The position numbers and the translations under genes are program-made. From Candidatus Hydrogenedentota bacterium (GTDB lineage: Bacteria; Hydrogenedentota; Hydrogenedentia; Hydrogenedentales; JAEUWI01), in assembly GCA_019637335.1 (NCBI GenBank), contig JAHBVV010000019.1, positions 391 through 64,390 of the forward strand: a stretch of DNA of 64,000 bases, in the 5' to 3' direction. Position 1 is the stretch's first letter. Each line of letters begins with the position of its first letter. The notes beneath the pieces were generated by a model that was not told the origin of the DNA, made no database searches, and saw nothing but the letters and a program-made list of their open reading frames with translations. This document shows positions 8,480-44,795 of this stretch, piece by piece.

Positions 8480-9020
8480 GTGATGGGTCTCGGCGGGTAC
8501 AGTCCCCCGCGATTTGGGGGTGGTGTTGGGCGCTTTCGCGGCTGGGGTGGTTATTGTCGCGGGCTCCAGTCCCCTTGGGGACTGCCTCTGGCTGGTACGT
8601 GGGCCAACGTATTGTCCAATGGCGCCAATCCAGCCGGTGGCTGTACCCGCAGAGCCTTTCGGCGGGTACAGTCCCCCGCGAGTTGGGGGTGGTGTTGGGC
8701 GCTTTCGCGGCGTTGGTGGTTTTTGTCGCGGGCTCCAGTCCCCTTGGGGGGCGACGGGACAGCCGCGCCGGTTGTTGGTGTTGTGGGTTGGTTGGGCTGG
8801 CTTTGGGTGTTGTGCGGGCTGTTGGTGCGTGGGGTGTTGGGGCGCCGCAGTCCCTGGGGGTGGCGACGGGACAGCCGCGCCGGTTGTTGGTGTTGTGGGT
8901 TGGTTGGGCTGGCTTTGGGTGTTGTGCGGGCTGTTGGGCCGTGGGGTGGTGGGGCGCCGCAGTCCCTGGGGGGCGGCTTGGGTGGTTTTTGTCGCGGGCT
9001 CCAGTCGCCTTGGGGGGGCT
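8480..9020. repeat. GT-rich modular interspersed repeat block (same family). Contains two tandem copies of the ~105-bp GCGACGGGACAGCCGCGCCGGTTGTTGG... unit
   Basis: Direct sequence identity with the 3255-4390 and 6690-7215 blocks. Confidence 0.8.
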
Positions 9021-21823: not shown

Positions 21824-22260
21824 TTGGGGGTTGGTGTTGTGAGGTTGGGTGCGGTCGTTGCCGTGGGCAGGAATGCTCGCGATCCTGGGGGGCGATCGCG
21901 TAGCGCGGGTGTCGGTGGGGTTGGGGTGGCTTGGGTTGGGGGTGATCGCTCGTTCAGGGTGGTGGGGCTGGATGTGGGGTGGTTGTTGCTCCGGGCACAC
22001 GAACGCGCCTGGGGCGCGATCGCGTGGCACGGGTGTCGGTGGGGTTTGGGTGGATTGGGAAGGGTTGGGGAGCGTGTGGAATCCGGGGGTTGTGTTGGGT
22101 CAGGCAGGGATGCCTAACCTCCTGTTGCGTCGCTGGTGTGTGGTGGGGTTGGGTGGATTGGGAAGGGTTGGGGAGCGTGTGGAATCCGGGGGTTGTGTTG
22201 GGTCAGGCAGGGATGCCTGACCTCCTGTTGCGCCGCTGGTGTGGTGTAGGGTTGGTTGTT
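21824..22260. repeat. GT-rich repeat block. Includes a perfect ~105-bp tandem duplication (22044-22148 / 22149-22253) with the hairpin GTCAGGCAGGGATGCCTGAC
   Basis: The two 105-bp units differ at about three positions. The upstream part (GGTTGTTGCTCCGGGCACACGAACGCGCCTGGGGCGCGATCGCGTGGCACGGG) matches 6695-6750. Confidence 0.8.
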
Positions 22261-33954: not shown

Positions 33955-34081
33955 GGGCGGGAGTATACGTCACGGGCCGGAACCGAGAAAAGGGGAGCGA
34001 GGTCCGAAGCCAGGCTGTGCTGCACCGCTCGCCAATGCCGCGGCATTGTACCCACGAATTGTTTCATGTACATTAGCCGAC

Positions 34082-34201
34082 TCAGGCAGCGGGCAACACC
34101 CGGAGCAGGCCCATGAACCAACCCAATCCCAAGGTGGACGATTACCTCGCCAACGGCTGCGGGCGCTGTCCCCTTGGCGGGACGCCCGATGCGCTGGCAG
34201 A
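34082..34201 (+). pseudogene. truncated duplicate of the 5' end of the YdeI/DUF1801 gene found at 36808
   Basis: Encodes MNQPNPKVDDYLANGCGRCPLGGTPDALAENKKRMGSLR*. Nucleotide-level identity with 36808-36880, and the upstream 34040-34080 also matches 36525-36560. Confidence 0.6.
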
Positions 34202-34228
34202 AAACAAGAAACGAATGGGGTCCTTGCG

Positions 34229-34996
34229 ATGACACGACACACCGAAGAGTTTGATGAATTGGTGGTCGTACATCAGGACCCGCAATCCCGCCGCTGGTTC
34301 CCGGTTGGCCGGTTGTCGTTTGATGGCGAACTGTATCATTTTCAGTACACTCGGGGAGCCGTCGAAGCCCACGCAGCAGGCGCATTTCTTCCATTCGGCG
34401 TGATGAAAGACCTGGAGGCTGACTACCGCTCGCGCAAGCTTTTTCCACTCTTCCAGAACCGCGTCATGCCCCGGTCGCGCCCGGAATACGCCGATTACAC
34501 GCGCTGGCTGCTTGGCGCACCCGGTGAACTGACGCCCCTGGAGGAGCTGGGCCGCTCCGGGGCGGCGCGCGCGACGGACAACATCCAGTTGTACCCGGTG
34601 CCGAGGCCGGTGGACGGTTACTACCGCATGTCATTCTTCGCGCATGGGGTTCGGCACTTGCCGCAAGCGGCGCAGGCCGTTATCGGCGAACAGGCGGCGG
34701 GTACGCGGCTGTTCCTGATGCGGGACATCCAGAACGCCCGGGATCCCGACGGCCTGGCGTTGCGTACGGAAAGCCCCATTGCCCTGGTTGGCTACTGCCC
34801 GCGCTTTCTCTGCACGGATTTCATGAAGATCGTGCGCGAAGACCAGGAAGCCATCGTCGTACTCGCGCAGGTTAACTCGGATGCGCCGCTGCAGTTCCGA
34901 TTTCGTTGCGAATTATCGGCGCATTGGCCTGAAGGGTTCCGCCCGTTTGACACGGAGGCTTTCCAGATGGTGACTGCGGCGGTGGCAGCCACGTAG
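34229..34996 (+). CDS. hypothetical protein with HipA N-terminal-like region (no kinase domain)
   Basis: LVVVHQDPQSRRWFPVGRLSFDGELYHFQYTRGAV and LFPLFQNRVMP resemble HipA_N motifs (GxL...F.Y...W; LPxFxNLLPEG). Only 255 aa. Confidence 0.35.
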   Translation: MTRHTEEFDELVVVHQDPQSRRWFPVGRLSFDGELYHFQYTRGAVEAHAAGAFLPFGVMKDLEADYRSRKLFPLFQNRVMPRSRPEYADYTRWLLGAPGELTPLEELGRSGAARATDNIQLYPVPRPVDGYYRMSFFAHGVRHLPQAAQAVIGEQAAGTRLFLMRDIQNARDPDGLALRTESPIALVGYCPRFLCTDFMKIVREDQEAIVVLAQVNSDAPLQFRFRCELSAHWPEGFRPFDTEAFQMVTAAVAAT

Positions 34997-35107
34997 ACAG
35001 ATTGCGTTATCGCGCTATACGTGCGTTGGCATTTGTTCGTGGTCGTTGGCGGATTTGCGGCGCGAGAGCCAGCGGACTATCATGTCACCCATCAGGAGGG
35101 CAGGGTC

Positions 35108-36442
35108 ATGTGGATCTGGATATTCGGCACGCTGGCCGTGGCTGCGGCGCTCATCGCCATTGTCGGCTACTTCCTTTTCATGCGCTTCCGCGCGCCGGGC
35201 GGAAGGACTGGCCGCATCGAGGGCGTTCTTCTCATCGACGGCAAGCCTGCGCCGCCAGGAACCCCGGTGGCCTGCTCGCTCTCCCGCGAATGCAGTAGCT
35301 CCCCGCGCTGGCTCTCGTTCATCACGGGCGTACCACGCGAGGATGTCGGTCAAAGTTTCATCATGTGGTCCGAATACACCATGACCGAAGACGAAGGAAA
35401 GTTCGCCTTTGAACGCATCCCGGAAGGCAAGGCCAATCTCGGGCGCGCCCACGGCGGATTGTTACGAAAATCCTGGCTCTTCGGTCTGGTGAATATTTCG
35501 CTCGAATCCAAAATTGAGGCGGATCAAGAGCGAACCGTGAGCGTCCGGGCCAATGAAACAACGTATGTCACGCTCGGTGTCGCCGCCACGATTCTCCGCG
35601 GCCGATTCGTAGACCCCCGTGACACCGGCCGGACTTTCAATAGCGTGAATTCCCATTGCGCATTCTTATCGAGCAAGGCCGAACTCCCGGAGATTCCCGA
35701 CGATGTCCCGCCCGAGGAGCGTGACGCCTGGTGGAAAGAGTTTCAGGCCTCCGAAGAGGGATTGCGGTGGCTTGAGCGCCTGCAGCGCATGTACCACATC
35801 GCCGTGGATGAACAGGGACATTTCAGCGCATCCAATGTTCAGCCTGGGCGTTACAAGTTGTGCGCGCAATTGGATCACGCGCCCGGCGGCGGGACCGCGC
35901 GACCCTTCGGGGAGTATGAGGGGATTGTTGAGGTGCCATCATCCGACAATGGCGACGCACCGGTCGAGTTGGACCTGGGCGATCTGCCACTATTGTTGCA
36001 CTTCCCCCTGAAGCCCGGCGAACCCTTGCCGGCCATCCCGGTGCGCAACCACAAAGGCGACCCGCTGGAAATCCCATCCGGCAAGGACGGTTACCTGCTC
36101 CTCTGCCTCTGGTGGCCTCACGACGATATACACGGCGTCGTTCCCAAGATATTGAAGGCCTTGGAGAAAAGTCGGGCCCGCCGCAACAACATACCCGAAG
36201 TGTTCGTCATCACGATGGACGGTCAATGGGCGCCGGCGCACCACCAATTGCGCGGCAAAAAACCAGATTGGCCTCTGAAGTTCGTCTCCGAGGAAGACTC
36301 GCTCCGGCTTGCGACGACTTTCGGTGTTCGTTCTTCGGCCTTCTTCCTGTTCTCTCCAGAAGGAACCCTCATCGAGGGAGAGATTGCGCCAGAGGGACTG
36401 AAGTCCAGCCTGCGCCGAGCCCAATATGCTCGGGCAATGTAG
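35108..36442 (+). CDS. membrane-anchored hypothetical protein with possible thioredoxin-fold C-terminal region lacking CxxC
   Basis: N-terminal TM (MWIWIFGTLAVAAALIAIVGYFLFM). C-terminal YLLLCLWWPHDD...PEVFVITMDG resembles a TlpA/redoxin fold but has no catalytic Cys pair. Confidence 0.4.
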   Translation: MWIWIFGTLAVAAALIAIVGYFLFMRFRAPGGRTGRIEGVLLIDGKPAPPGTPVACSLSRECSSSPRWLSFITGVPREDVGQSFIMWSEYTMTEDEGKFAFERIPEGKANLGRAHGGLLRKSWLFGLVNISLESKIEADQERTVSVRANETTYVTLGVAATILRGRFVDPRDTGRTFNSVNSHCAFLSSKAELPEIPDDVPPEERDAWWKEFQASEEGLRWLERLQRMYHIAVDEQGHFSASNVQPGRYKLCAQLDHAPGGGTARPFGEYEGIVEVPSSDNGDAPVELDLGDLPLLLHFPLKPGEPLPAIPVRNHKGDPLEIPSGKDGYLLLCLWWPHDDIHGVVPKILKALEKSRARRNNIPEVFVITMDGQWAPAHHQLRGKKPDWPLKFVSEEDSLRLATTFGVRSSAFFLFSPEGTLIEGEIAPEGLKSSLRRAQYARAM

Positions 36443-36807
36443 TCACCAGTCGCGATTCGAGCAAACCGACAGTCCCACCCGCCTCTCAATAGCTTCTCGG
36501 CAATGAGGCAGCATTGTGCGTCTTGAAGATTTCATGTACATTAGACAACTCAGGCAGCGAGCAATGAATTCGGAGCAGCCGCTCATGACGCGTTTCGTCA
36601 CCCATTAAGGATGAATGCCGCTTCTGACTGTTGGCGATCAACGGAAGTCCCGTACCCTCAAGTCGTGACCGCTTTTGGCGGGGGTTCGAGAAAGAAAACG
36701 CAGAGATACGGATTGACGCCTCCCGTCACCCACAAGCTGATGGCCGCTTGAGGCGGCCCGCTTGAGGGTGGCACCCGTCGCTTCTTTTTAAATTTCGGAG
36801 CAGGCCC

Positions 36808-37458
36808 ATGAACCAACCCAATCCCAAGGTGGACGACTACCTCGACAACGGCTGCGGGCGCTGTCCCCTCGGCGGCACGCCCCAGTGCAAAGTCCACCAA
36901 TGGACCGACGAACTGGTCCGCCTGCGCGCCATTCTGCTCGAATGCGGCCTGGCCGAGGAGCGCAAGTGGGGCGCCCCCTGCTACACCTGGGAAAACAACA
37001 ACGTCGCCATGCTCGGCGCGCTCAAGGAGTCCTGCACGCTGGGCTTCTTCAAGGGCTCCCTCCTGGACGACCCCGCCGGAATCCTTGAAAAACCCGGCGA
37101 GAACTCCCGCGCCATGCGCGTCATACGCTTCCGCGACGTCCGTGAAATTGAGGCGAGGAAATCGGCCCTGAAACGCGTCATCGGCGCGGCGATTGAGGCC
37201 GAGAAGGCCGGGCTCAAGGTGGATCTGGAAAAGGACGGCGCGCTCCCGATACCCGAAGAGCTCCAGGAACAATTCGACCAGGACCCCGCCTTCAAGGCCG
37301 CCTTCGACGCGCTCACGCCCGGCCGCCAGCGCGGCTACCTCCTCCATTTCGTCGCGCCAAAACAATCCAAAACCCGCGCCTCGCGAATCGAGAAGTGCAT
37401 GCCCCAGATCTTCGAGGGCATCGGCCTGCACGACCACTACAAGCAGCGCGCGCGGTAG
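36808..37458 (+). CDS. YdeI/OmpD-associated family protein (DUF1801)
   Basis: The N-terminal signature is MNQPNPKVDDYLDNGCGRCPLGGTPQCKVHQW. Confidence 0.65.
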   Translation: MNQPNPKVDDYLDNGCGRCPLGGTPQCKVHQWTDELVRLRAILLECGLAEERKWGAPCYTWENNNVAMLGALKESCTLGFFKGSLLDDPAGILEKPGENSRAMRVIRFRDVREIEARKSALKRVIGAAIEAEKAGLKVDLEKDGALPIPEELQEQFDQDPAFKAAFDALTPGRQRGYLLHFVAPKQSKTRASRIEKCMPQIFEGIGLHDHYKQRAR

Positions 37459-37537
37459 CCCAATCCGCCCAGGCGGGCGACAGCGGCCGAGTTATCATCA
37501 TATTGAACCTCGCGCCTAACGCGTCACACACTCCCCC

Positions 37538-38575
37538 TCACTCCAGCGGCGCATCCGCGTTCCAAATCGGCGTGTCCCATCCCGCGATGTCCGCCGGCCG
37601 GACGCCCCGCCGGAAGCTGGTGAAGCTGAACTTCGTCGGGTTGTACGGCCCCACGAACCCGATTTCGCCGTCGGGCGTGATCGCGTCTTCCAGGCCCGCG
37701 GCCCAGAGCTGCGCGTTGACGAGCATCCGCCGGAACCCGTCGCTCACGATGTCCTGCGAGGCGCCCTGGGTGGTGGTGAAGACGCGTGCGGACTTGCCGG
37801 ACTTGCTTTCGTAGTCGCGGGTCCACGCCACCGGCATGAGCGTCTTCGTGCTGTCGACCGGCGCGTCCTTTTCCATGCCGTTGAGTATGATGCCGCGCGC
37901 GATGATGGTGGCGGGGGCAAGAGGGTTGGCGGTGTAGCCGCCGGCCTGGGTGTGCATGTCGGTGACGCCGCGCAGGATGGGGTGCTCGCTGTTGTCGGGC
38001 TGGATGCCGATGATGGAGCTCTGCTCGTGGTTCTTGCCGTAGTGCGTGACCCACGTCTCGCCCAGCACCTGCCGTCCGAAGCCCATGTGGAACTCCTCGC
38101 CCGGGTAGCGGTAGTCGTAGGGGTAAAACTTTCGGTCCGGCTCGATCTTGAACGCGTGCGTCGACGTCCGCAGCGCGACGATGGGGCCGCCGCGATCGAC
38201 GTAATCGGCGAAATGCTGCATCTCCTCGTCCGGCATACTGATGAAGCGCATGAAGATGACCATCAGGTCCGCCTCCTTCAGGATCTCCAGCCCTTCCAGG
38301 TGGCTGCTCCCCGGCAGGATGGTCCCATCCTCCGGGTTCGTCCCGAAGATCACCGTGCACCGGAAGCCGTAGTGCCGGGCCATGATCCGCGCCAGCGCGG
38401 GAAGCGCCTCCTCGCTTCGGTATTCGTGGTCCGAGGCGATATAGACAATGTGCTTCCCCTCGCCGACGCCGCCTGAACCTTCGTAAGTCACATGGGATGG
38501 GTATTCGGCGCGGGCCGTGAGGGCGAGCAGCACTGGTAGGGCGAGGGAGAGGAGAATGCGTTGGACGATGGGCAT
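37538..38575 (-). CDS. ThuA domain-containing protein (secreted)
   Basis: Signal peptide (MPIVQRILLSLALPVLLALTARA). ThuA-like core (KHIVYIASDHEYRSEEALPALARIM...ADLMVIFMRF...GGPIVALRTSTHAF). The start is chosen at the signal-peptide Met, not at the longer 434-aa ORF. Confidence 0.6.
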   Translation of the reverse strand: MPIVQRILLSLALPVLLALTARAEYPSHVTYEGSGGVGEGKHIVYIASDHEYRSEEALPALARIMARHYGFRCTVIFGTNPEDGTILPGSSHLEGLEILKEADLMVIFMRFISMPDEEMQHFADYVDRGGPIVALRTSTHAFKIEPDRKFYPYDYRYPGEEFHMGFGRQVLGETWVTHYGKNHEQSSIIGIQPDNSEHPILRGVTDMHTQAGGYTANPLAPATIIARGIILNGMEKDAPVDSTKTLMPVAWTRDYESKSGKSARVFTTTQGASQDIVSDGFRRMLVNAQLWAAGLEDAITPDGEIGFVGPYNPTKFSFTSFRRGVRPADIAGWDTPIWNADAPLE

Positions 38576-38683
38576 GGCGTTGGCTCCGGTTGCGGTTGCG
38601 ATGACTATAATGGGGATGGCGGGCGGAAGCAAAAAATGGAGCACCGGGACTTGTGCTAAAATGGAGGGGGTTAAAATGAGGAC

Positions 38684-38989
38684 TTGCGAATGGTAGCGAA
38701 TTTGCAGATCGATGAGGCATCCATAGCCGAATTCTGCCAGCGGCATCACCTCCGGCGTCTGGCTTTTTTCGGATCTGTCCTTCGAGACGATTTCACGGAG
38801 AACAGTGATGTGGATGTGCTGGTGGAATACGCTCCAGAGCACGTACCCGGGTTCATCGCCCTTGCGGGGATGGAGGAGGAATTGTCTGCGATTCTGGGGC
38901 GCAAGGCGGATATACGCTCAGCGGCTGACCTGAGCCATTACTTCCGCGACGAAGTGCTTCGCGAAGCACAGGTACAATATGTCGCGTAG
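38684..38989 (+). CDS. nucleotidyltransferase (MNT/MntA-like antitoxin of type VII HepT/MNT pair)
   Basis: The motifs are RLAFFGSVLRDDFTENSDVDVLVEY (GSx10DxD). Confidence 0.65.
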   Translation: MRMVANLQIDEASIAEFCQRHHLRRLAFFGSVLRDDFTENSDVDVLVEYAPEHVPGFIALAGMEEELSAILGRKADIRSAADLSHYFRDEVLREAQVQYVA

Positions 38990-39330
38990 CTCCACGCAAT
39001 TGCTATTGGGGCACATGCTGGATGCGGCTCGCGAGGCGCACGGCTATGTTGAGACGCTCGAACGGCCCGCATTGGACAATAACCGCCTGCTCCAGCACGG
39101 GCTGGTTCGTTGTATTGAAGTAATCGGGGGAGGCGGCGGCCCGAATGGATGTCGGCTTCAGGGAGACGCATCCCCAGTTGCCTTGGCGCAAGATCATTGC
39201 GATGCGCAATCGGATCGTCCATGCCTATTTTGACATTGACCTGGATGTGGTCTGGTCGACGGCTAAGATTGAACTCCCGAAGTTGATTGAAATACTGGAG
39301 GCGCTTATCGCCGAGTTTCAGGCCGAATAG
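38979..39330 (+). pseudogene. HepT/DUF86 toxin gene, frameshifted
   Basis: The N-terminal half (LLLGHMLDAAREAHGYVE...RCIEVIGG) lies in one frame and the C-terminal half (ETHPQLPWRKIIAMRNRIVHAYFDIDLDVVW, an RX4HXY-type motif) in another. The frames switch near the G-run at 39120-39140. Confidence 0.55.
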
Positions 39331-39766
39331 CAATTCCTGGAAAATGAGTAATACTTTAGCCGTATGAAGTAAGGCGTTCGCTGATACGAGATGCCTTACT
39401 TGCACTGGATGTATTCGTCATTCCCGCGAAGGCGGGAATCCAGAGGGTTTGCGAGGTTAACGTTGCATGATCTCTGGATCCCCACTTTCGTGGGGATGAC
39501 GGTTTTCGATCACCGAAAGCCGCCACCGTTGGGTGCGACGAGGGTGACTACTTCAGACGACTAAAGAATTTCGAAAATGAGACGTATCGATCGTATCGGA
39601 CCAATCGGCCCTATGTTCGAAACCAGCAACGCGTGCACGTCTCCAATCGACCAATTGGCCCCATTCTCCCCTCGCCATTGCCGCCCGCTATGCGGTATCC
39701 TGTTTCCGTGCTCGCGCACCGGCGAGTCCCGAGAGCAATATCCACGAACAGTGAAGCGGCAGCGCC

Positions 39767-41683
39767 ATGTCCAATCTCCACCAGCACCTCCAGCAACATT
39801 TCGGCTTCGAGGCCTTCCTCGACGGCCAGGAACCGGCCATCGCACGCCTGCTCGACGGTAAGTCCGTCCTCGCCATCTTCCCCACCGGCGGCGGCAAGAG
39901 CATGTGCTATCAGCTCCCCGCGCTCCTGCTCGACGGCCTCACGCTCGTCATCTCGCCCCTCATCGCCCTCATGAAGGACCAGCTCGACTTTCTCAACCGC
40001 CACGGCGTGCCCGCCGCGCGCCTGGATTCCACCCTGACCCGCGAGGAAAACCTCAAGCTCTTCGACGATCTGAATTCCGGCGCGCTGAAGCTCCTGTACA
40101 TCGCCCCCGAGCGCCTCGGCAACGAGCGCTTCCTCAAATCCATCGCCCGCCGCAATATCGCGCTCCTCGCCATCGACGAGGCCCACTGCATTTCGGAATG
40201 GGGCCACAATTTCCGCCCGGACTACCTCAAGATTGCGCGCCTCGCAAAGGAGTTGCGGGTCGAGCGTGTCCTGGCGCTCACCGCCACCGCCACACCCGCC
40301 GTCGCGGACGACGTGCGGGCCGCTTTCGATATCGCGAAGGAGGACGAAGTACACACCGGCTTCTACCGGCCCAACCTGAAGCTCAGCGTGGTCCCGTGCA
40401 CCGCCCGCGAGCGGGACGCGTCCCTGCTGGAGCGGATTCAGCGGCGTCCCCCCGGCCCCGCCATCGTCTACGTCACGCTCCAGAAGACCGCCGAGGCCGT
40501 CGCGGAATTCCTCGCGCGCCACGGGCTCGACGCGACCGCCTACCACGCCGGCCTGAAGCCCGAGGACCGCACGGCTATCCAGGACCGCTTCATGGCCTCG
40601 GAGAACAGCATTATCGTGGCCACCATCGCCTTCGGCATGGGCGTGGACAAGTCCAATATCCGCTACGTGTACCACTACAACCTCCCCAAGAGCCTCGAAA
40701 GTTACAGCCAGGAGATCGGCCGCGCCGGGCGCGACGGGCGCACGTCGGTCTGCGAAATGCTGGCCTGCCCCGCCGACGCCACCGTGCTGGACAACTTCTC
40801 CTACGGCGACACCCCGGAGCCCGACGCCGTGGCGGGTCTCGCGCGGCATTTGTGCGGCGCGGGCGAATCCTTCGACATCTCCGAGTACGACCTGTCCCAC
40901 GAGTTCGACGCGCGCCCGCTCGTCGTGCGCACCCTCATCACCTACCTTGAGCTCGATGGCCTCATCGCGTCCACGGGTCCCTTCTACACGGAGTACAAGT
41001 TCCAGCCGCAGCGCCCATCCGCGGAGATCTTCGCGCAGGTCAGCGGCGAACGCTCGGAATTCCTCAAAAAGATCTTCCGCTTCGCGAAGAAGGGCCCGAA
41101 ATGGTTCACGCTCGACATCGCCCGCGTCGCCGAGACCATTGGCGAGCCGCGCGACCGTATCGTTGCCGCGCTCACCTTCCTGGAAGAGCGGGGCGACCTC
41201 ATCGTGCAGGTGGCGGGACTGCGCCAGGGCTACCGCAGGTTACGCGAGCCCGACGATCTGGAGGCACTCATCGAATCCCTCAACCAGCGCTTCCAGCAGC
41301 GCGAGGGGAACGATATCGCGCGGACGCGCCAGGTGCTCGACTACGCGGCAGGCGCCGGTTGTCTCACGCGCCGCCTGCTCGCCCACTTCGGCGAGGAGCG
41401 CGGCGACTGCGGCCACTGCGACCGGTGCAAAGGCGTCCCCCGCGATCCCCTGCCCGATCTGCCCGCCGCGCAATTCAATGGGGAGGACGAGGCCCGTGTG
41501 CGCGCGCTCCTGGCGCAGCGGCGCGATGCCCTGGCCAGCCCGAGGCAGGTCGCCCGCTTCCTCTGCGGCATCAGCTCCCCCCGGGCCACCCGCGCGAAGC
41601 TGCACAAGGACACCCTCTTCGGCGTCTACGAGCACGCGCCGTTTCGGGACGTGCTCGATTTCGTGGAGGGGCTCGGGGGCTGA
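39767..41683 (+). CDS. recQ: ATP-dependent DNA helicase RecQ
   Basis: Motifs are GQEPAIARLL, PTGGGKSMCYQLPAL, DEAHCISEWGHNFRPDY, ALTATAT and FGMGVDKSNIRYVYHYNLPKSLESYSQEIGRAGRDG. A C-terminal RQC-like region with a Cys cluster (CGHCDRC) is also present. Confidence 0.9.
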   Translation: MSNLHQHLQQHFGFEAFLDGQEPAIARLLDGKSVLAIFPTGGGKSMCYQLPALLLDGLTLVISPLIALMKDQLDFLNRHGVPAARLDSTLTREENLKLFDDLNSGALKLLYIAPERLGNERFLKSIARRNIALLAIDEAHCISEWGHNFRPDYLKIARLAKELRVERVLALTATATPAVADDVRAAFDIAKEDEVHTGFYRPNLKLSVVPCTARERDASLLERIQRRPPGPAIVYVTLQKTAEAVAEFLARHGLDATAYHAGLKPEDRTAIQDRFMASENSIIVATIAFGMGVDKSNIRYVYHYNLPKSLESYSQEIGRAGRDGRTSVCEMLACPADATVLDNFSYGDTPEPDAVAGLARHLCGAGESFDISEYDLSHEFDARPLVVRTLITYLELDGLIASTGPFYTEYKFQPQRPSAEIFAQVSGERSEFLKKIFRFAKKGPKWFTLDIARVAETIGEPRDRIVAALTFLEERGDLIVQVAGLRQGYRRLREPDDLEALIESLNQRFQQREGNDIARTRQVLDYAAGAGCLTRRLLAHFGEERGDCGHCDRCKGVPRDPLPDLPAAQFNGEDEARVRALLAQRRDALASPRQVARFLCGISSPRATRAKLHKDTLFGVYEHAPFRDVLDFVEGLGG

Positions 41684-41705
41684 TGCTGGGGCGCGCTGGG
41701 GACAG

Positions 41706-41948
41706 CGTGGACGGAGTGGACGGAGTGGACGGCGTGGACGGCGTGGACGGAGTGGACGGAGTGGACGGAGTGGACGAGGTGGACGGACTGGACGGAGTGG
41801 ACGGAGTGGACGGAGTGGACGGAGTGGACGGAGTGGACGAGGTGGACGAGGTGGACGAGGTGGACGAGGTGGACGAGGTGGACGAGGTGGACGAGGTGGA
41901 CGAGGTGGACGAGGTGGACGAGGTGGACGGAATGGATCGAGCCATTAT
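41706..41948 (+). repeat. perfect tandem array of ~27 copies of the 9-bp unit GTGGACGRR. In the frame overlapping the recQ stop it is translatable as (VDG)n(VDE)n
   Basis: Direct reading: GTGGACGGA x7, GTGGACGAG, ..., GTGGACGAG x10. It is followed by reverse-complement half-units (CCGTCCAC). Confidence 0.9.
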
Positions 41949-42060
41949 GGCGCGCGTCCACCCGGTCCATGCTGTCCACCCCCGTCCACAGGGCTTGCAA
42001 AAGAAGCGGCCCCGCATAGCGGAGCCGCAAAACCAACTGAGATAGCGCCAGCTCCCGCCC

Positions 42061-43305
42061 CTATGGCGCGGTATACTCGCTCACATCCAGCACATACACC
42101 TGCCGCGTATCCCCCTCGTGCATGGAGTCGATCGCGATCGTGCGCCCGTCGCGGCTCCACGCGGGGTGAAGGTCGCAGCGCCACTCGTTTTCGCTCGGCT
42201 TCGGTCGGTAGAACTGGCCCAGGTCCACCCGCTTCCCGTCGCTCACGCGATAAAGATACAAGTGCTGCATCTTGTTCTTGTCCGGGTAGGTGTCGGAAAG
42301 AATCCATTTCCGGTCCGGCGAGTACGTGCAGTGCCCGTCGCGCGCCAGCACCCCATCGCCGATCACCGTCATCGCGTCGGACTGATCCCGGTACAGGATG
42401 AAGCGGTCGCCAATGTCCGGCTCGCGCGACCACGCCAGAATATGCTCCGGATCCCGCCAGATGAAGTGGCTCACCATCCCGTGGTCGGCCACCACGTGGA
42501 GGTTTCCGCCATTCGCGTCCGCCGTAAACATCCGCGTCGTGCGCGCTGTCGATCCCGGCTCGTTGTGCACGCGATGCAGAAACGTATACCGGCTTCCGTC
42601 CATGTTGTAAAGCAGGTGGTTAAACCAGTGCTTGCCCGCCGGCTTCGCCTCCTGTGGGATCGCCGCCGCCTGCGCGTAGGAAAAAAGCAACTCGGATTCG
42701 CCCGTCTCCAGGTTCATGCGCCAGATGCCGTCGCCCTCCGGCGCAAACTGCTCTGCAAGCGGGTCCACTCCGCCGTGGTAGCCGTAGCCCGGGCGCGTGT
42801 CCTGTATCCGCGCGAAGTTCACGCTCAGGCCCCACTTCCCGTCCGGGCTCACGCAATAGATCGCCCGCGGAAGTTTTCGGCGCTCGCCGCTGAACACATC
42901 CTGGATATACGAGACGAATGCCTCGCCGTCGCGGTCGTTGTAGATCACCTCCGAGTCGCTGCCCGGCAGCCATTGAAGCATGCAGCCCTGCTGCCAGCTC
43001 CAGGCACGGCTTTCGCCCAGGGGGATCCAGTGATCGCCGTCCTCCAGGTCCACCATACCCAGTTGGATGGCGTCGTCGGGGTTGGGCGTGCGGTCTTCGA
43101 AGCCCACCTGCATGGCCAACAGATAGCGGCCCGACGGATCGAACTGCTCCTTGTCGTAATAGCCGAACCAGTGGGCTTTGCCGGAGGTGACGGCGCGGAT
43201 GGGCACAATACATTCCGACCGTGCGCCCGTCTCCGGGATTTGCGTCCCGGCGCGAAGCGGAAAAGCGAACCCCGCCAGCAATACGATAATACAAGCCGTC
43301 CTCAT
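42061..43305 (-). CDS. secreted beta-propeller protein, oligogalacturonide-lyase-like/TolB-like (paralog 1)
   Basis: Signal peptide, then WFGYYDKEQFDPSGRYLL... and a C-terminal CDLHPAWSRDGRTIAIDS. 60-65% identical to the adjacent paralog. Confidence 0.45.
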   Translation of the reverse strand: MRTACIIVLLAGFAFPLRAGTQIPETGARSECIVPIRAVTSGKAHWFGYYDKEQFDPSGRYLLAMQVGFEDRTPNPDDAIQLGMVDLEDGDHWIPLGESRAWSWQQGCMLQWLPGSDSEVIYNDRDGEAFVSYIQDVFSGERRKLPRAIYCVSPDGKWGLSVNFARIQDTRPGYGYHGGVDPLAEQFAPEGDGIWRMNLETGESELLFSYAQAAAIPQEAKPAGKHWFNHLLYNMDGSRYTFLHRVHNEPGSTARTTRMFTADANGGNLHVVADHGMVSHFIWRDPEHILAWSREPDIGDRFILYRDQSDAMTVIGDGVLARDGHCTYSPDRKWILSDTYPDKNKMQHLYLYRVSDGKRVDLGQFYRPKPSENEWRCDLHPAWSRDGRTIAIDSMHEGDTRQVYVLDVSEYTAP

Positions 43306-44576
43306 CGCGAGCCCTCCGGATCCGTATATTCACTCACATCGAGCAAGTGCACCTGCCGCTTGCCGTCCAGGTACATCGCGTCAATGGCGACCGTCCTTCC
43401 GTCGCGGCTCCAGCCAGGGTGAAGATCGCAACGCCATTCGTTGTCGCTCGGCTTGGGCCGGTAGATCTGCGCCAACTCGATGAAGCGCTTGTCCTCCAGG
43501 TTGTACAGGTACAGGTGGTGCAGGTTGTTCTTGTCCGGATACGTGTCCGTAAGCATCCACTTGCGGTCCGGCGAATACGTGCAGTGCCCGTCGCGCGTGA
43601 AAACCTCCGCCCCGACGATCTCCTTCTCCTCGCTCTGGTCCCGGTACAGATAGTACGCGTCGCCCGTGTCCGGCTCCCGGCTCCACGCCAGAATATGCGC
43701 CGGGTCGCGCCAGATGAAATGGCTCACCATCCCGTGATCCGCCACAATGTGCAGGCCGCCACCGCCCGAGTCCGCCGTAAACATCCGCGTGGTCCAGCGG
43801 TTTTTCACGTCCAGCTCGTTGTGCGCGCGGTGGAGAAAAATGAAGCGGCTCCCGTCCGTGTTGTAGAGCAGGTGGTTGAACCAGTGCTTTCCGGACGGCG
43901 CCTTCTCCTGCGGGATCGCGGCAATATCGGCATACGAAAATAGCAGCGTCGATTCGCCGCTCGCCAGATCGACCGACCAGATCCCGTCCCCTTCCGGCGC
44001 GAGCTGATCCGCAACCGGATCCACCCCGCCCGCGTAGCCGTAGCCCGGGCGCGTATCCTGGATCCGCGTAAAATTGACGCTCAGCGCGCGCTTGCCATCC
44101 GGGCTCAGCGTATAGATCGGGCGGGGCAACACCCGCTTCTCCCGCGTAAACACATCCAGGATCACCGCCACATGCCGATCGCCCTCGATCGTGTTGTAGA
44201 TGATCTCCGAGTCCGACCCCGGTATCCACTGAAGCATGCACCCCTGCTGCCATCCCCACGCAGTGCTTTCCCCGAGCGGGATCCACGTATCCCCCTCCGC
44301 CGTGTCCACCATGCCGATGACGATCGCGTCGTCCACCGTCGGCGACCGGTCCTCAAAGCCCACCTCCATCGCAAGCACATAGCGGTCCGACGGATCGAAC
44401 TGTTCCTTGTCGTAATAGCCGAACCAGTGCGCCTTCCCGCTCGTGATGGCGCGAATGGGAACAATACACTGTATCTTCTCGCCGGTCTCCGGGATCTGGG
44501 CGCCCGAAGGCAGCATCCCCGCAAGCAGTACGCCCAGCACGGCGCCCATTCGGTTTACACGCGCGATATGTTTCAT
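43302..44576 (-). CDS. secreted beta-propeller protein, oligogalacturonide-lyase-like/TolB-like (paralog 2)
   Basis: SD GGAGAG lies 6 nt upstream of ATG (MKHIARVNRMGAVLGVLLAGMLPSGA). Its stop overlaps the start of paralog 1 (ATGA). Confidence 0.45.
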   Translation of the reverse strand: MKHIARVNRMGAVLGVLLAGMLPSGAQIPETGEKIQCIVPIRAITSGKAHWFGYYDKEQFDPSDRYVLAMEVGFEDRSPTVDDAIVIGMVDTAEGDTWIPLGESTAWGWQQGCMLQWIPGSDSEIIYNTIEGDRHVAVILDVFTREKRVLPRPIYTLSPDGKRALSVNFTRIQDTRPGYGYAGGVDPVADQLAPEGDGIWSVDLASGESTLLFSYADIAAIPQEKAPSGKHWFNHLLYNTDGSRFIFLHRAHNELDVKNRWTTRMFTADSGGGGLHIVADHGMVSHFIWRDPAHILAWSREPDTGDAYYLYRDQSEEKEIVGAEVFTRDGHCTYSPDRKWMLTDTYPDKNNLHHLYLYNLEDKRFIELAQIYRPKPSDNEWRCDLHPGWSRDGRTVAIDAMYLDGKRQVHLLDVSEYTDPEGSR

Positions 44577-44795
44577 CACTATTCTCTCCATCTTGGAACC
44601 AAACGATAATCGGGCAACCATACCACGCCATTCCCCTCCCGGCCAAGCCCTTGCGAATCCCGGATCGCCGCGCTACAATGCCCGGATTGGCGGCCGGCGG
44701 CAGTCCGGCCCAAACCCGGCGCCGGAAGTCCGCCCCGGTCTCGAATCCATACCTGCCTTGTAGCAATCTAGTGTTCTCTCACGAAAGGAATTCGC

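What the first reader, a model, noticed from the sequence alone, without database searches (positions are those of the whole stretch)
41683..42045. Perfect 9-bp tandem repeat (GTGGACGRR)x27 translationally coupled to the recQ stop codon
The recQ TGA overlaps an ATG (TGATG). The resulting frame reads MLGRAGDS(VDG)7VDE VDG LDG (VDG)5 (VDE)10 VDG MDRAIMARVHPVHAVHPRPQG...* (121 aa). The array has essentially no synonymous variation, which indicates recent slippage expansion, so this is a VNTR. It is followed by reverse-complement half-units (CCGTCCAC), so the region can form a long imperfect hairpin. It is either a hypervariable acidic peptide or tail extension coupled to recQ, or a structured non-coding element and replication-slippage hotspot.
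Basis: seen in the sequence. Interest (0 to 1): 0.55.

Follow-up and report, generated by a model that had tools for sequence, protein, structure and literature searches.

The report
Expanded arm of a hexamer-lattice palindrome
The 9-bp repeat after recQ is not a gene: it is one overgrown arm of a small palindromic DNA element (GTGGAC every 9 bases, facing GTCCAC copies) that recurs in many bacterial phyla and that I could not find described anywhere.

Summary
The repeat is real, with corrections. There are 25 clean 9-bp units at 41707-41931, not 27, plus one degenerate unit at each end. The array is not perfect: TRF gives 94% matches. It lies in the 377-bp gap between convergent recQ and a 414-aa gene in a Candidatus Hydrogenedentes MAG.

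The 120-aa VDG/VDE frame is almost certainly not a gene. In the closest relative the tail is read in a different frame, and the frame has no homologues.

The four inverted GTCCAC copies downstream turned out to be the key. (RTGGAC-N3)n, a short spacer, then (GTCCAY-N3)m is a recurring architecture:
- 10 loci in GTDB genomes, mostly Hydrogenedentota;

The modal form is 4+4 units. Hexamer positions 2-6 are at least 99% invariant, the N3 positions are free, and the arms almost always converge. The element usually lies about 25 nt after a stop codon.

It is also embedded, with constraint visible at synonymous sites, in four-helix-bundle-suffix genes (TIGR04258) inside type I R-M operons.

The window's copy has a canonical 4-unit right arm and a left arm expanded to about 26 units, probably by slippage. 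Its function is unknown. The best guess is a REP-like interspersed palindrome recognised by a sequence-specific protein.

The parts
39767..41683 (+). recQ-family helicase gene (638 aa). This is context only. Its stop codon TGA (41681-41683) lies 24 nt upstream of the first clean repeat unit.
   Evidence: ORF list. Pfam DEAD, Helicase_C and RecQ_Zn_bind. Homologues of 635-661 aa.
41683..42045 (+). 120-codon ORF that overlaps the recQ stop (TGATG) and reads (VDG/VDE)n. Judged a by-product of the repeat, not a gene.
   Evidence: The tail is in a different frame in the relative. The only family hit is collagen-like and below cut-off.
41698..41706 (.). Degenerate outer unit GGGGACAGC. In the relative L001 a clean GTGGACGGA unit occupies this position.
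41707..41931 (.). Left arm of 25 head-to-tail units GTGGAC-N3. Units 1-14 are mostly GGA, with 2 GGC, 1 GAG and 1 CTGGACGGA. Units 15-24 (41833-41922) are ten identical GTGGACGAG. Unit 25 is GGA. This is an expanded version of the canonical 4-unit arm.
   Evidence: TRF, pattern scan, unit table, family comparison.
41932..41940 (.). Degenerate innermost unit ATGGATCGA (5 of 6 hexamer positions match).
41941..41955 (.). Central spacer gccattatggcgcgc. It is 18 nt from the end of ATGGAT to the first GTCCAC, which falls in the family's 18-20 nt spacer mode.
   Evidence: Spacer distribution.
41956..41989 (.). Right arm of four inverted units: GTCCAC ccg GTCCAT gct GTCCAC cccc GTCCAC. The steps are 9, 9 and 10 bp and the N3 differ between units. 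Four is the modal arm size of the family.
41999..42028 (-). Intrinsic terminator of the convergent 414-aa gene: GCGGCTCCGCTATGCGGGGCCGC followed by TTCTTTT. It is separate from the repeat element and is conserved in the relative L129.
42061..43305 (-). Convergent 414-aa gene of unknown function, with a weak PD40 beta-propeller hit. It identifies the source as a Candidatus Hydrogenedentes MAG: 100% identity to KF886_18180.

Best explanation
The repeat is non-coding. It is one arm of a small palindromic intergenic element built on a 9-bp lattice. Several copies of the hexamer RTGGAC, each followed by three free bases, face several copies of GTCCAY across a short spacer.

The canonical element has about 4+4 units and typically sits about 25 nt after a stop codon. 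In this Hydrogenedentes genome the right arm is canonical, with 4 units of differing N3. The left arm has grown to about 26 units by replication slippage: two runs of identical units, GGA-type and ten GAG, record recent bursts. That makes the locus a hypervariable minisatellite.

Shown:
- the architecture;
- its recurrence across phyla;
- the invariance of the hexamer against the free N3;
- the convergent orientation;
- the position after stop codons;
- nucleotide-level constraint at synonymous sites where the element lies inside a gene;
- rapid restructuring between close relatives.

Inferred: the hexamers are recognition sites for a sequence-specific protein that binds in register along each arm, and the element behaves like a REP/BIME-type interspersed palindrome. 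That would mean it is copy-propagated within genomes, transcribed as a 3' hairpin, and tolerated only downstream of genes. The only candidate partner seen is the four-helix-bundle-suffix protein (TIGR04258). This is weak.
For: Array statistics.

Relatives:
- The closest relative (RecQ 91% identical) carries the same array at the same place, and its contig ends in it.
- The relative's contig from the other side also ends in the array. There the junction has one inverted unit and a 3-nt spacer, against 4 units and a longer spacer here. The GTGGAC-agc-RTGGAC units appear in opposite orientation.
- Relatives at 79% RecQ identity lack the array.

Family:
- A genome-contig scan for four direct units found 10 loci with a convergent inverted arm and none with a simple divergent one. 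Only two alternating arrays in a Sumerlaeia MAG mix both orientations. Six of the 10 are from two Hydrogenedentota MAGs.
The modal arms are 4 and 4. Spacer modes are near 1, 10-11, 18-20 and 28 nt.
- Hexamer positions 2-6 are at least 99% invariant, while N3 carries 0.04-0.15 bits. Adjacent N3 are identical in only 48 of 401 cases, so canonical arms are not recent slippage copies. N3 match between mirrored arm positions only 41% of the time.

Position: in 31 of 38 co-directional contexts the element is nearer the upstream stop codon.

Inside four-helix-bundle-suffix genes the linker uses Gly GGA 69% of the time against 12% in the domains. For Ser TCC the figures are 63% against 10%.

The Ga0233425 copies share a spacer and outer inverted flanks, which points to copy-propagation within a genome.

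No Rfam family matches.
Against: - No binding protein, transcript or mobility has been observed. Function is inferred from sequence statistics alone.
- Both collection scans were seeded with this hexamer, so I cannot say how special GTGGAC is compared with other 6-mers. The divergent-orientation control could only be run on viral contigs (0 against 0) and on the sequence already fetched, where the counts are 10:0 and 4:1. At least one divergent pair exists upstream of a four-helix-bundle gene (L131).
- Arms were delimited by at least 5 of 6 matches, which inflates hexamer invariance somewhat.
- Gene calls behind the position statistic are crude: longest ORF plus GC3.
- 12 of 62 callable contexts are divergent, which does not suit a 3'-end role.
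- The window holds only one element in 64 kb and no four-helix-bundle-suffix gene.
- The relative's right arm has a single unit, so the 4-unit arm here could be a recent local inversion rather than an inherited canonical arm.
- The array length comes from a MAG assembly and could be mis-estimated.
Confidence: 0.7

Rival explanations
1. An ordinary, isolated VNTR. A 9-mer expanded by slippage in a neutral intergenic gap. The inverted copies arose by a local template-switch inversion, and the resemblance to elements elsewhere comes from having searched with this motif.
For: - Blocks of identical units.
- The relative has only one inverted unit, and its units read in the opposite orientation, consistent with a small inversion.
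- Both collection scans were motif-seeded.
- Many GTGGACG arrays in Actinomycetota and other phyla have no inverted partner and lie in long ORFs.
Against: - The right arm has the family's modal 4 units, with differing N3 and a typical spacer.
- The host phylum is where the genome hits concentrate, with 4 to 5 contigs in a single MAG.
- Canonical arms elsewhere keep the hexamer while N3 are randomised, which neutral decay of a slippage array cannot produce.
- Orientation is 10:0 convergent in a sample ascertained on one arm only.
Confidence: 0.13
2. A transcript-level element. The two arms form a long interrupted hairpin (6-bp helices separated by 3x3 loops) at the 3' end of recQ mRNA. It would act as a terminator, a 3'-exonuclease block or an RNase III site. 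Sequence-specific protein binding to DNA would not be involved.
For: - The predicted MFE structure pairs the last left-arm units with the four inverted units.
- Elements lie just after stop codons.
- In free-standing elements the sense strand shows G.U rather than A.C at the variable hexamer position, 16:4.
- recQ has no other obvious terminator.
Against: - The folding z-score is only -2.1 against shuffles.
- No U-tract follows the arms.
- A purely structural stem should show compensatory changes. Instead the hexamer sequence is fixed across phyla and across GC contents from 28% to 72%.
- N3 are barely complementary, at 41%.
- The G.U bias is reversed inside four-helix-bundle genes, 3:22.
- 12 divergent-promoter contexts.
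Confidence: 0.12
3. A real small protein. An acidic (VDG/VDE)n peptide translationally coupled to recQ through TGATG, with length variation acting as phase or antigenic variation.
For: - The TGATG overlap and the open frame are conserved in the relative's first 44 nt.
- Units of 9 bp always preserve the frame.
- The same lattice is translated in frame inside four-helix-bundle-suffix genes.
Against: - The tail after the repeat is in a different frame and has a different length in the relative.
- No homologues or domains.
- The frame runs through the convergent gene's terminator.
- The nearest GGAGG ends 13 nt before the ATG.
- The family's elements show no consistent frame or coding context outside the four-helix-bundle gene.
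Confidence: 0.04

Closest known systems
REP / BIME / REPIN interspersed palindromes of proteobacteria
   Same: - Short extragenic imperfect palindromes.
- Many copies per genome.
- Located just downstream of genes or between convergent genes.
- Fixed relative orientation of the two halves.
- Within-genome subfamilies with shared flanks, as in the Ga0233425 copies.
   Different: - The arms here are lattices of a 6-bp word with free 3-bp fillers, not a continuous stem.
- The same hexamer is kept across phyla, whereas REP sequences are species-specific.
- No RAYT (Y1 transposase) gene was seen nearby.
- Arms can expand to 25 units.
Bacterial VNTR / minisatellite loci (used for MLVA typing)
   Same: Head-to-tail short units, blocks of identical variants, rapid change between close relatives, and assembly breaks at the locus.
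   Different: A VNTR is defined only by slippage. Here the unit contains a conserved word, and the array is paired with an inverted arm in a recurring architecture.
Iteron-type centromere/operator arrays bound by ribbon-helix-helix proteins (omega heptads of pSM19035, ParG tetramer boxes, ParR/parC, MetJ metboxes). From my own knowledge, not tested here.
   Same: Contiguous 7-10 bp units, each with a short recognition word, in direct and inverted orientation, bound in register by an oligomerising protein.
   Different: Those arrays lie in promoter regions next to the gene for their binding protein, on plasmids. These elements are chromosomal, dispersed, mostly 3' of unrelated genes, and have no adjacent RHH gene.
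Four-helix-bundle suffix domain proteins (TIGR04258 / TIGR02436, Pfam 23S_rRNA_IVP; Avd-like fold)
   Same: The only recurrent neighbour. 24 of 131 element loci carry this gene, with the element in its inter-helix linker or within about 100 nt of it. Extra arrays sit at the gene's 5' flank and C-terminal tail.
   Different: The window has no such gene. A 45%-identical Prevotella homologue has no array. Whether the protein binds the lattice or merely hosts it is unknown.
High-GC DnaA box TTGTCCACA and matS (GTGAC-N3-GTCAC). Recalled from memory, used as leads only.
   Same: GTCCAC equals the 6-bp core of the high-GC DnaA box. The inner junction GTGGAC-N-GTCCAC resembles the 13-bp matS palindrome. 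The element also lies near a GC-skew sign change.
   Different: - Box positions 1, 2 and 9 carry almost no information.
- G at box position 3 is kept even in contigs of 28-32% GC.
- A 9-bp head-to-tail phasing is not how DnaA boxes are arranged.
- Elements are dispersed, about one per several hundred kb on long contigs, not confined to the terminus.
- The half-site length differs from matS.

Membership tests
Slippage-generated VNTR | Head-to-tail units of high identity, with runs of identical variants. | tested here: met
   25.6 copies, 94% matches, no indels. Ten identical GTGGACGAG and runs of GTGGACGGA.
Slippage-generated VNTR | Copy number differs between strains or reads. | tested here: inconclusive
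   The relatives' contigs stop 3-4 units into the array from both sides. Boundaries and the inner junction differ, but copy number cannot be read.
Convergent hexamer-lattice element (defined here) | RTGGAC hexamers on a 9-bp lattice with free N3. | tested here: met
   Family profile.
Convergent hexamer-lattice element (defined here) | A facing arm of about 3-5 GTCCAY units with differing N3, in convergent orientation. | tested here: met
   Four units at 41956-41989 with N3 of ccg, gct and cccc. The modal arm is 4 units.
Convergent hexamer-lattice element (defined here) | Spacer in the preferred series (about 1, 10, 19 or 28 nt). | tested here: met
   18 nt from the degenerate ATGGAT unit, or 27 nt from the last perfect hexamer. 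Modes.
Convergent hexamer-lattice element (defined here) | Lies within a few tens of nt downstream of a stop codon. | tested here: met
   24 nt after the recQ TGA. Family bias of 31 in 38.
Convergent hexamer-lattice element (defined here) | Multiple copies in the same genome. | not testable with these tools
   Only 64 kb of this genome is available and it holds one copy. Other Hydrogenedentota MAGs have hits on 2-5 contigs.
REP/REPIN | Associated RAYT (Y1/HUH) transposase and a conserved 5' GTAG-type guide next to a continuous stem. | not tested
   No recurrent transposase appeared among flanking ORF clusters, but whole genomes were not searched. The arms are interrupted lattices, not continuous stems.
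Translationally coupled small protein | Reading frame and sequence conserved in relatives, with detectable homologues. | tested here: not met
   The tail frame differs in L129. Only sub-threshold collagen-like hits.
Intrinsic terminator | GC-rich hairpin immediately followed by a U-tract. | tested here: not met
   The scan finds only the separate terminator at 42028-42006 for the minus-strand gene. No T-run follows the arms in the family.
RHH-bound iteron centromere/operator | The array lies next to the operon that encodes its binding protein, in a promoter region. | tested here: not met
   The neighbours are recQ and a beta-propeller-like gene, and the array lies 3' of both.
DnaA-box cluster | 9-mers matching TT(A/G)TCCACA, including positions 1, 2 and 9. 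| tested here: not met
   Only the 6-bp core matches. The three remaining positions carry 0.04-0.15 bits.
Known RNA family (Rfam 15) | Covariance-model match at gathering score. | tested here: not met
   Only sub-threshold miRNA-hairpin matches in the window. Nothing at the elements in 15 other loci.

The most novel reading that the evidence does not exclude
The array is an expanded copy of a previously undescribed, cross-phylum class of interspersed element: two convergent 9-bp lattices of the word RTGGAC, canonically 4+4. The word is held by selection at the nucleotide level even inside coding sequence. The element would be the binding or processing site of a dedicated trans-acting factor. 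The candidate is the highly conserved four-helix-bundle-suffix (Avd-like) protein that type I restriction-modification operons carry between hsdS and hsdR, and whose own gene is studded with the same lattices.
Probability: 0.35. Interest if true: 0.8.

Novelty: new variant of a known kind. Interest (0 to 1): 0.6.

Why it matters
As an isolated VNTR this would only be a typing marker. The wider pattern matters more.
- A 6-bp word is kept invariant on a 9-bp lattice, in a fixed convergent 4+4 arrangement, from contigs of 28% GC to contigs of 72% GC and in several phyla.
- That implies a conserved recognition system that nobody seems to have named.
- The link to the abundant but functionally blank four-helix-bundle-suffix proteins in type I R-M operons (at least 8000 close homologues) gives a directly testable lead for what those proteins do.
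- It also offers a new example of nucleotide-level constraint at synonymous sites inside a protein linker.
- For genome annotation, it explains a class of spurious low-complexity ORFs and of assembly breaks in Hydrogenedentota and PVC-group MAGs.

Tried and rejected
- **Exact-protein look-ups.** Look-ups of RecQ and of the 414-aa neighbour found nothing. The source was identified only through homologue search.
- **Longest-ORF-over-array test.** It was uninformative on the 120 genome loci because high-GC DNA is open in many frames. I replaced it with GC3-guided calls.
- **Viral contigs.** Zero hits for both the convergent and the divergent pattern. There is no phage link, and no orientation control from that source.
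- **Rfam.** Nothing relevant. The Acido-Lenti-1 hits in L156 lie elsewhere on that contig.
- **Literature.** Searches for the hexamer, Hydrogenedentes repeats, TIGR02436/TIGR04258 and four-helix-bundle plus type I restriction found nothing relevant.
- **PADLOC.** The scan of the four-helix-bundle protein failed on a coordinate error and I did not repeat it.
- **DnaA-box cluster.** Rejected, because the flanking box positions are uninformative.
- **matS/MatP-like and terminus role.** Considered because of the GC-skew flip near 36-40 kb. The elements are dispersed, so I did not pursue it.
- **CsrA-sponge idea (GGA motifs) and two-tetrad G-quadruplex next to recQ.** No test was available, and the palindromic partner and the coding-region copies do not fit.
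- **Chi-like site.** The hexamer is not enriched outside the element: 39 observed against 31 expected.
- **Classic MITE.** Spacers and flanks are not conserved between copies in the Hydrogenedentota MAGs, although one metagenome lineage does have a conserved ~140-bp unit. No target-site duplication was evident.
- **Plasmid collection.** Only one distant four-helix-bundle-suffix homologue (Prevotella), with no array.
Full report
**1. What is in the window**

Reading 41400-42500 and running TRF confirm a 9-bp head-to-tail array at 41707-41936. It has 25.6 copies, 94% matches, no indels and consensus GTGGACGGA. A two-unit pattern matches 24 times against 0.04 expected from shuffles. No other such array or lattice pair exists in the 64 kb.

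The unit table gives 25 clean units: 11 GTGGACGGA, 11 GTGGACGAG, 2 GTGGACGGC and 1 CTGGACGGA. Ten of the GAG units are consecutive (41833-41922). One degenerate unit flanks each side: GGGGACAGC at 41698-41706 and ATGGATCGA at 41932-41940.

The array lies in the 377-bp gap between two convergent genes. One is a RecQ-family helicase (39767-41683, plus strand; Pfam DEAD, Helicase_C, RecQ_Zn_bind). The other is a 414-aa gene (42061-43305, minus strand), which has its own intrinsic terminator at 42028-42006 followed by TTCTTTT.

After a 15-nt spacer the array is followed by four reverse-complement hexamers on nearly the same lattice: GTCCAC ccg GTCCAT gct GTCCAC cccc GTCCAC, at 41956-41989.

The 414-aa protein is 100% identical to KF886_18180 of a Candidatus Hydrogenedentes MAG.

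**2. Is the VDG/VDE frame a gene?**

The TGATG overlap and the 120-codon frame exist. Three results argue against a protein.
- Family searches give only collagen-like low-complexity hits below cut-off.
- RecQ homologues at 91% and 79% identity are 638-643 aa and end at the same place, so there is no read-through form.
- The closest relative's contig from the other side reads ...GTGGAC agc GTGGAC agc GTGGAC ccc GTCCAC agggcttgcaaaagtagcggccccgcatag (L129; neighbour gene 95% identical). In the repeat's frame this gives ...VDPVHRACKSSGPA*. The window, which has cccc and extra units, gives ...VHPRPQGLQKKRPRIAEPQNQLR*.

The DNA of that tail is almost identical in the two genomes because it is the convergent gene's terminator, yet the 'protein' is in a different frame. 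I conclude that the ORF is a by-product of a 9-bp repeat in high-GC DNA.

**3. Behaviour between relatives**

The contig carrying the 91%-identical recQ ends 44 nt after the stop, inside the same repeat: TGATGCTGGGGCGCGCT GTGGACGGA GTGGACGGA GTGGACGGA GTG (L001). A clean unit sits where the window has GGGGACAGC.

The contig from the other side also ends inside the array. The array is therefore present at this locus in a second lineage, and it is long enough to break k-mer assemblies there. Its copy number cannot be read.

The inner junction differs sharply. The relative has one inverted unit and a 3-nt spacer. The window has four inverted units and a longer spacer. The window's right arm contains, in inverted orientation, the GTGGAC-agc-RTGGAC units that end the relative's direct array. 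A small inversion or template switch would explain this; that is an inference.

Relatives with 79% RecQ identity have no repeat and a different convergent gene 10 nt away. This supports a fast-evolving, slippage-prone locus. It does not yet demonstrate length polymorphism.

**4. The inverted units are the important part**

A genome-contig scan for four direct units returned at least 120 loci across many high-GC phyla. Most look like coding low-complexity repeats with no partner.

Ten loci have the window's architecture: a direct arm, a short spacer, then an inverted arm on the same 9-bp lattice.
- L014, L026, L116 and L128: one Hydrogenedentota MAG.
- L089 and L091: another Hydrogenedentota MAG.
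- L065: Lentisphaerae.
- L071: an Acidobacteriota MAG.
- L048 and L094: see section 5.

This sample was ascertained on one arm only. All ten are convergent (>>>><<<<) and none is a simple divergent pair. Only two alternating arrays in a Sumerlaeia MAG (L011, L111) mix both orientations.

The same pattern and its divergent counterpart gave 0 hits in viral contigs.

In the 120 metagenome elements the modal arms are 4 units on each side (61 and 56 of 120). Spacer modes lie near 1, 10-11, 18-20 and 28 nt. GC content of the carrying contigs ranges from 28% to 72%.

Across 1180 units:
- hexamer positions 2-6 are at least 99% invariant;
- position 1 is G in 88% and A in 12%;
- the three filler positions carry only 0.04-0.15 bits;
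- the lattice unit just outside an arm is at background;
- adjacent fillers are identical in only 48 of 401 cases;
- fillers match between mirrored arm positions only 41% of the time.

Canonical arms are therefore not fresh slippage products and not simply stems. A 6-bp word and its phase are what is conserved. Arms were delimited at 5 or more of 6 matches, and the scans were seeded with this word. The contrast is so large (10 minority bases in positions 2-6 against 580 in N3) that ascertainment cannot be the whole story. A shuffled-hexamer control is still needed.

Expanded arms like the window's also occur elsewhere: 19+3, 6+19, 9+17 and 13+9 units.

**5. Where the elements sit**

With crude gene calls, 38 callable contexts are co-directional, 12 convergent and 12 divergent. 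In 31 of the 38 co-directional cases the element is closer to the upstream gene's stop codon, typically 5-50 nt away. The window fits: 24 nt after the recQ stop.

One metagenome (Ga0233425) has many copies that share a spacer (atcgccccatcgttcactct) and outer inverted flanks (CCAGGCATGAAGCTCCG...). This is a ~140-bp unit that has evidently been copied around a genome. Copies within the Hydrogenedentota MAGs share only the lattice.

The only recurrent neighbour is a four-helix-bundle-suffix protein (TIGR04258 plus TIGR02436; Pfam 23S_rRNA_IVP).
- 24 of 131 element loci carry it.
- The gene lies between the hsdS and hsdR genes of type I restriction-modification operons.
- The element lies in frame in the loop between the N-terminal helices and the suffix helix. 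In 16 of 18 cases both parts are in the same frame.
- Further arrays sit at the gene's 5' flank and C-terminal tail.

A homologue search with the N-terminal domain alone is unbiased for the linker. It shows the same GxSGxS...STxSTx linker and STxSTx tail in nearly all sampled top hits, from a family of at least 8000 close homologues that are 83-89% identical across PVC, Syntrophobacteraceae and Brocadiaceae.

Codon usage shows that the constraint is on nucleotides. Gly is GGA in 12% of domain codons but 69% of linker codons. Ser is TCC in 10% against 63%, and AGC in 49% against 0%.

A 45%-identical Prevotella homologue has no array. The window contains no such gene.

**6. How it most likely works**

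Shown:
- the window's repeat is non-coding;
- it is one arm of a convergent hexamer-lattice element;
- its partner arm is canonical (4 units, differing fillers);
- the left arm is expanded in two bursts of identical units;
- the locus restructures quickly between relatives.

Inferred:
- Expansion is by replication slippage, the standard mechanism for blocks of identical short units.
- The conserved word on a fixed phase, with free fillers and a fixed relative orientation, is the signature of a protein that reads each hexamer and binds in register.
- The position after stop codons and the within-genome families resemble REP/BIME-type interspersed palindromes.

A purely RNA-structural role is less likely, for these reasons:
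- The word does not covary.
- The fillers barely pair.
- The fold is only 2.1 SD better than shuffles.
- No U-tract follows the arms.

A sense-strand excess of G.U over A.C (16:4) in free-standing copies hints at some transcript-level selection. It is reversed (3:22) inside the four-helix-bundle genes.

The four-helix-bundle-suffix protein is the only candidate partner. It could equally be just a tolerant host of an inserted element.

**7. Comparison with known things**

The element works most like REP/BIME elements and, in arm architecture, like iteron arrays bound by ribbon-helix-helix proteins. It fails the membership features I could test for an intrinsic terminator, an RHH centromere/operator, a DnaA-box cluster, any Rfam family and a coupled small protein.

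Five literature searches found no description. The searchable library is limited to open-access papers and bioRxiv preprints.

**8. Verdict**

The peptide reading is rejected. The VNTR and structured-element reading is supported and extended.

I rate the locus itself as modestly interesting. The family it belongs to is interesting enough to follow up, pending the motif-shuffle control and a whole-genome census.

Noticed in passing
L131, L133, L161, L238, L249 and about 20 other loci (for example L131:4930-5700): Four-helix-bundle-suffix genes (TIGR04258) sit between hsdS and hsdR of type I R-M operons. They carry RTGGAC/GTCCAY lattices in their inter-helix linker, 5' flank and C-terminal tail. 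Synonymous sites are held (GGA and TCC codons) against the genes' own codon usage.
   Followed up: partly
window 1-64000; sign change near 34000-40000: GC skew is strongly positive (0.07-0.28) up to about 34 kb and mostly negative from about 36 kb to 58 kb, so cumulative skew peaks a few kb upstream of the repeat. This could be a replication terminus or just a change in gene orientation.
   Followed up: no
window 8736-8973 and 22032-22255: Two G/T-rich tandem duplications with periods of 112 and 103 bp, about 2.1 copies and 92-94% identity. They contain GTTGG/GGTTGGG-type words and lie in regions of extreme positive GC skew. Their nature is unknown.
   Followed up: no
window 38684-39330: An MNT-type nucleotidyltransferase antitoxin (38684-38989) is followed by a HepT-like toxin that appears split over two frames (38979-39233 and 39145-39330). 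The relative L001 has an intact 116-aa HepT gene. This is a possible pseudogene or assembly frameshift.
   Followed up: no
window 42061-44621: Two tandem paralogues (414 and 439 aa, about 70% identical) of an uncharacterised family that is very abundant in Hydrogenedentes. Only a weak PD40 beta-propeller hit was found.
   Followed up: no
L156:4851-5516: Seven tandem copies of the Rfam Acido-Lenti-1 RNA motif lie on an AT-rich contig (32% GC) that also carries a 10+9 hexamer-lattice element about 4 kb away.
   Followed up: no
L142, L152, L159, L176, L182, L191, L202, L203, L241 (metagenome Ga0233425): In one metagenome the 4+4 lattice is the core of a ~140-bp repeat family. Copies share a conserved spacer and outer inverted flanks (CCAGGCATGAAGCTCCG), in either orientation. 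This suggests MITE- or REPIN-like copying.
   Followed up: partly
L011:4864-5433 and L111:4495-4816 (Sumerlaeia MAG): Long regions alternate 3-4 GTGGAC units with 4-7 GTCCAC units many times over, inside very long ORFs. This is a different, possibly coding, arrangement of the same word.
   Followed up: no
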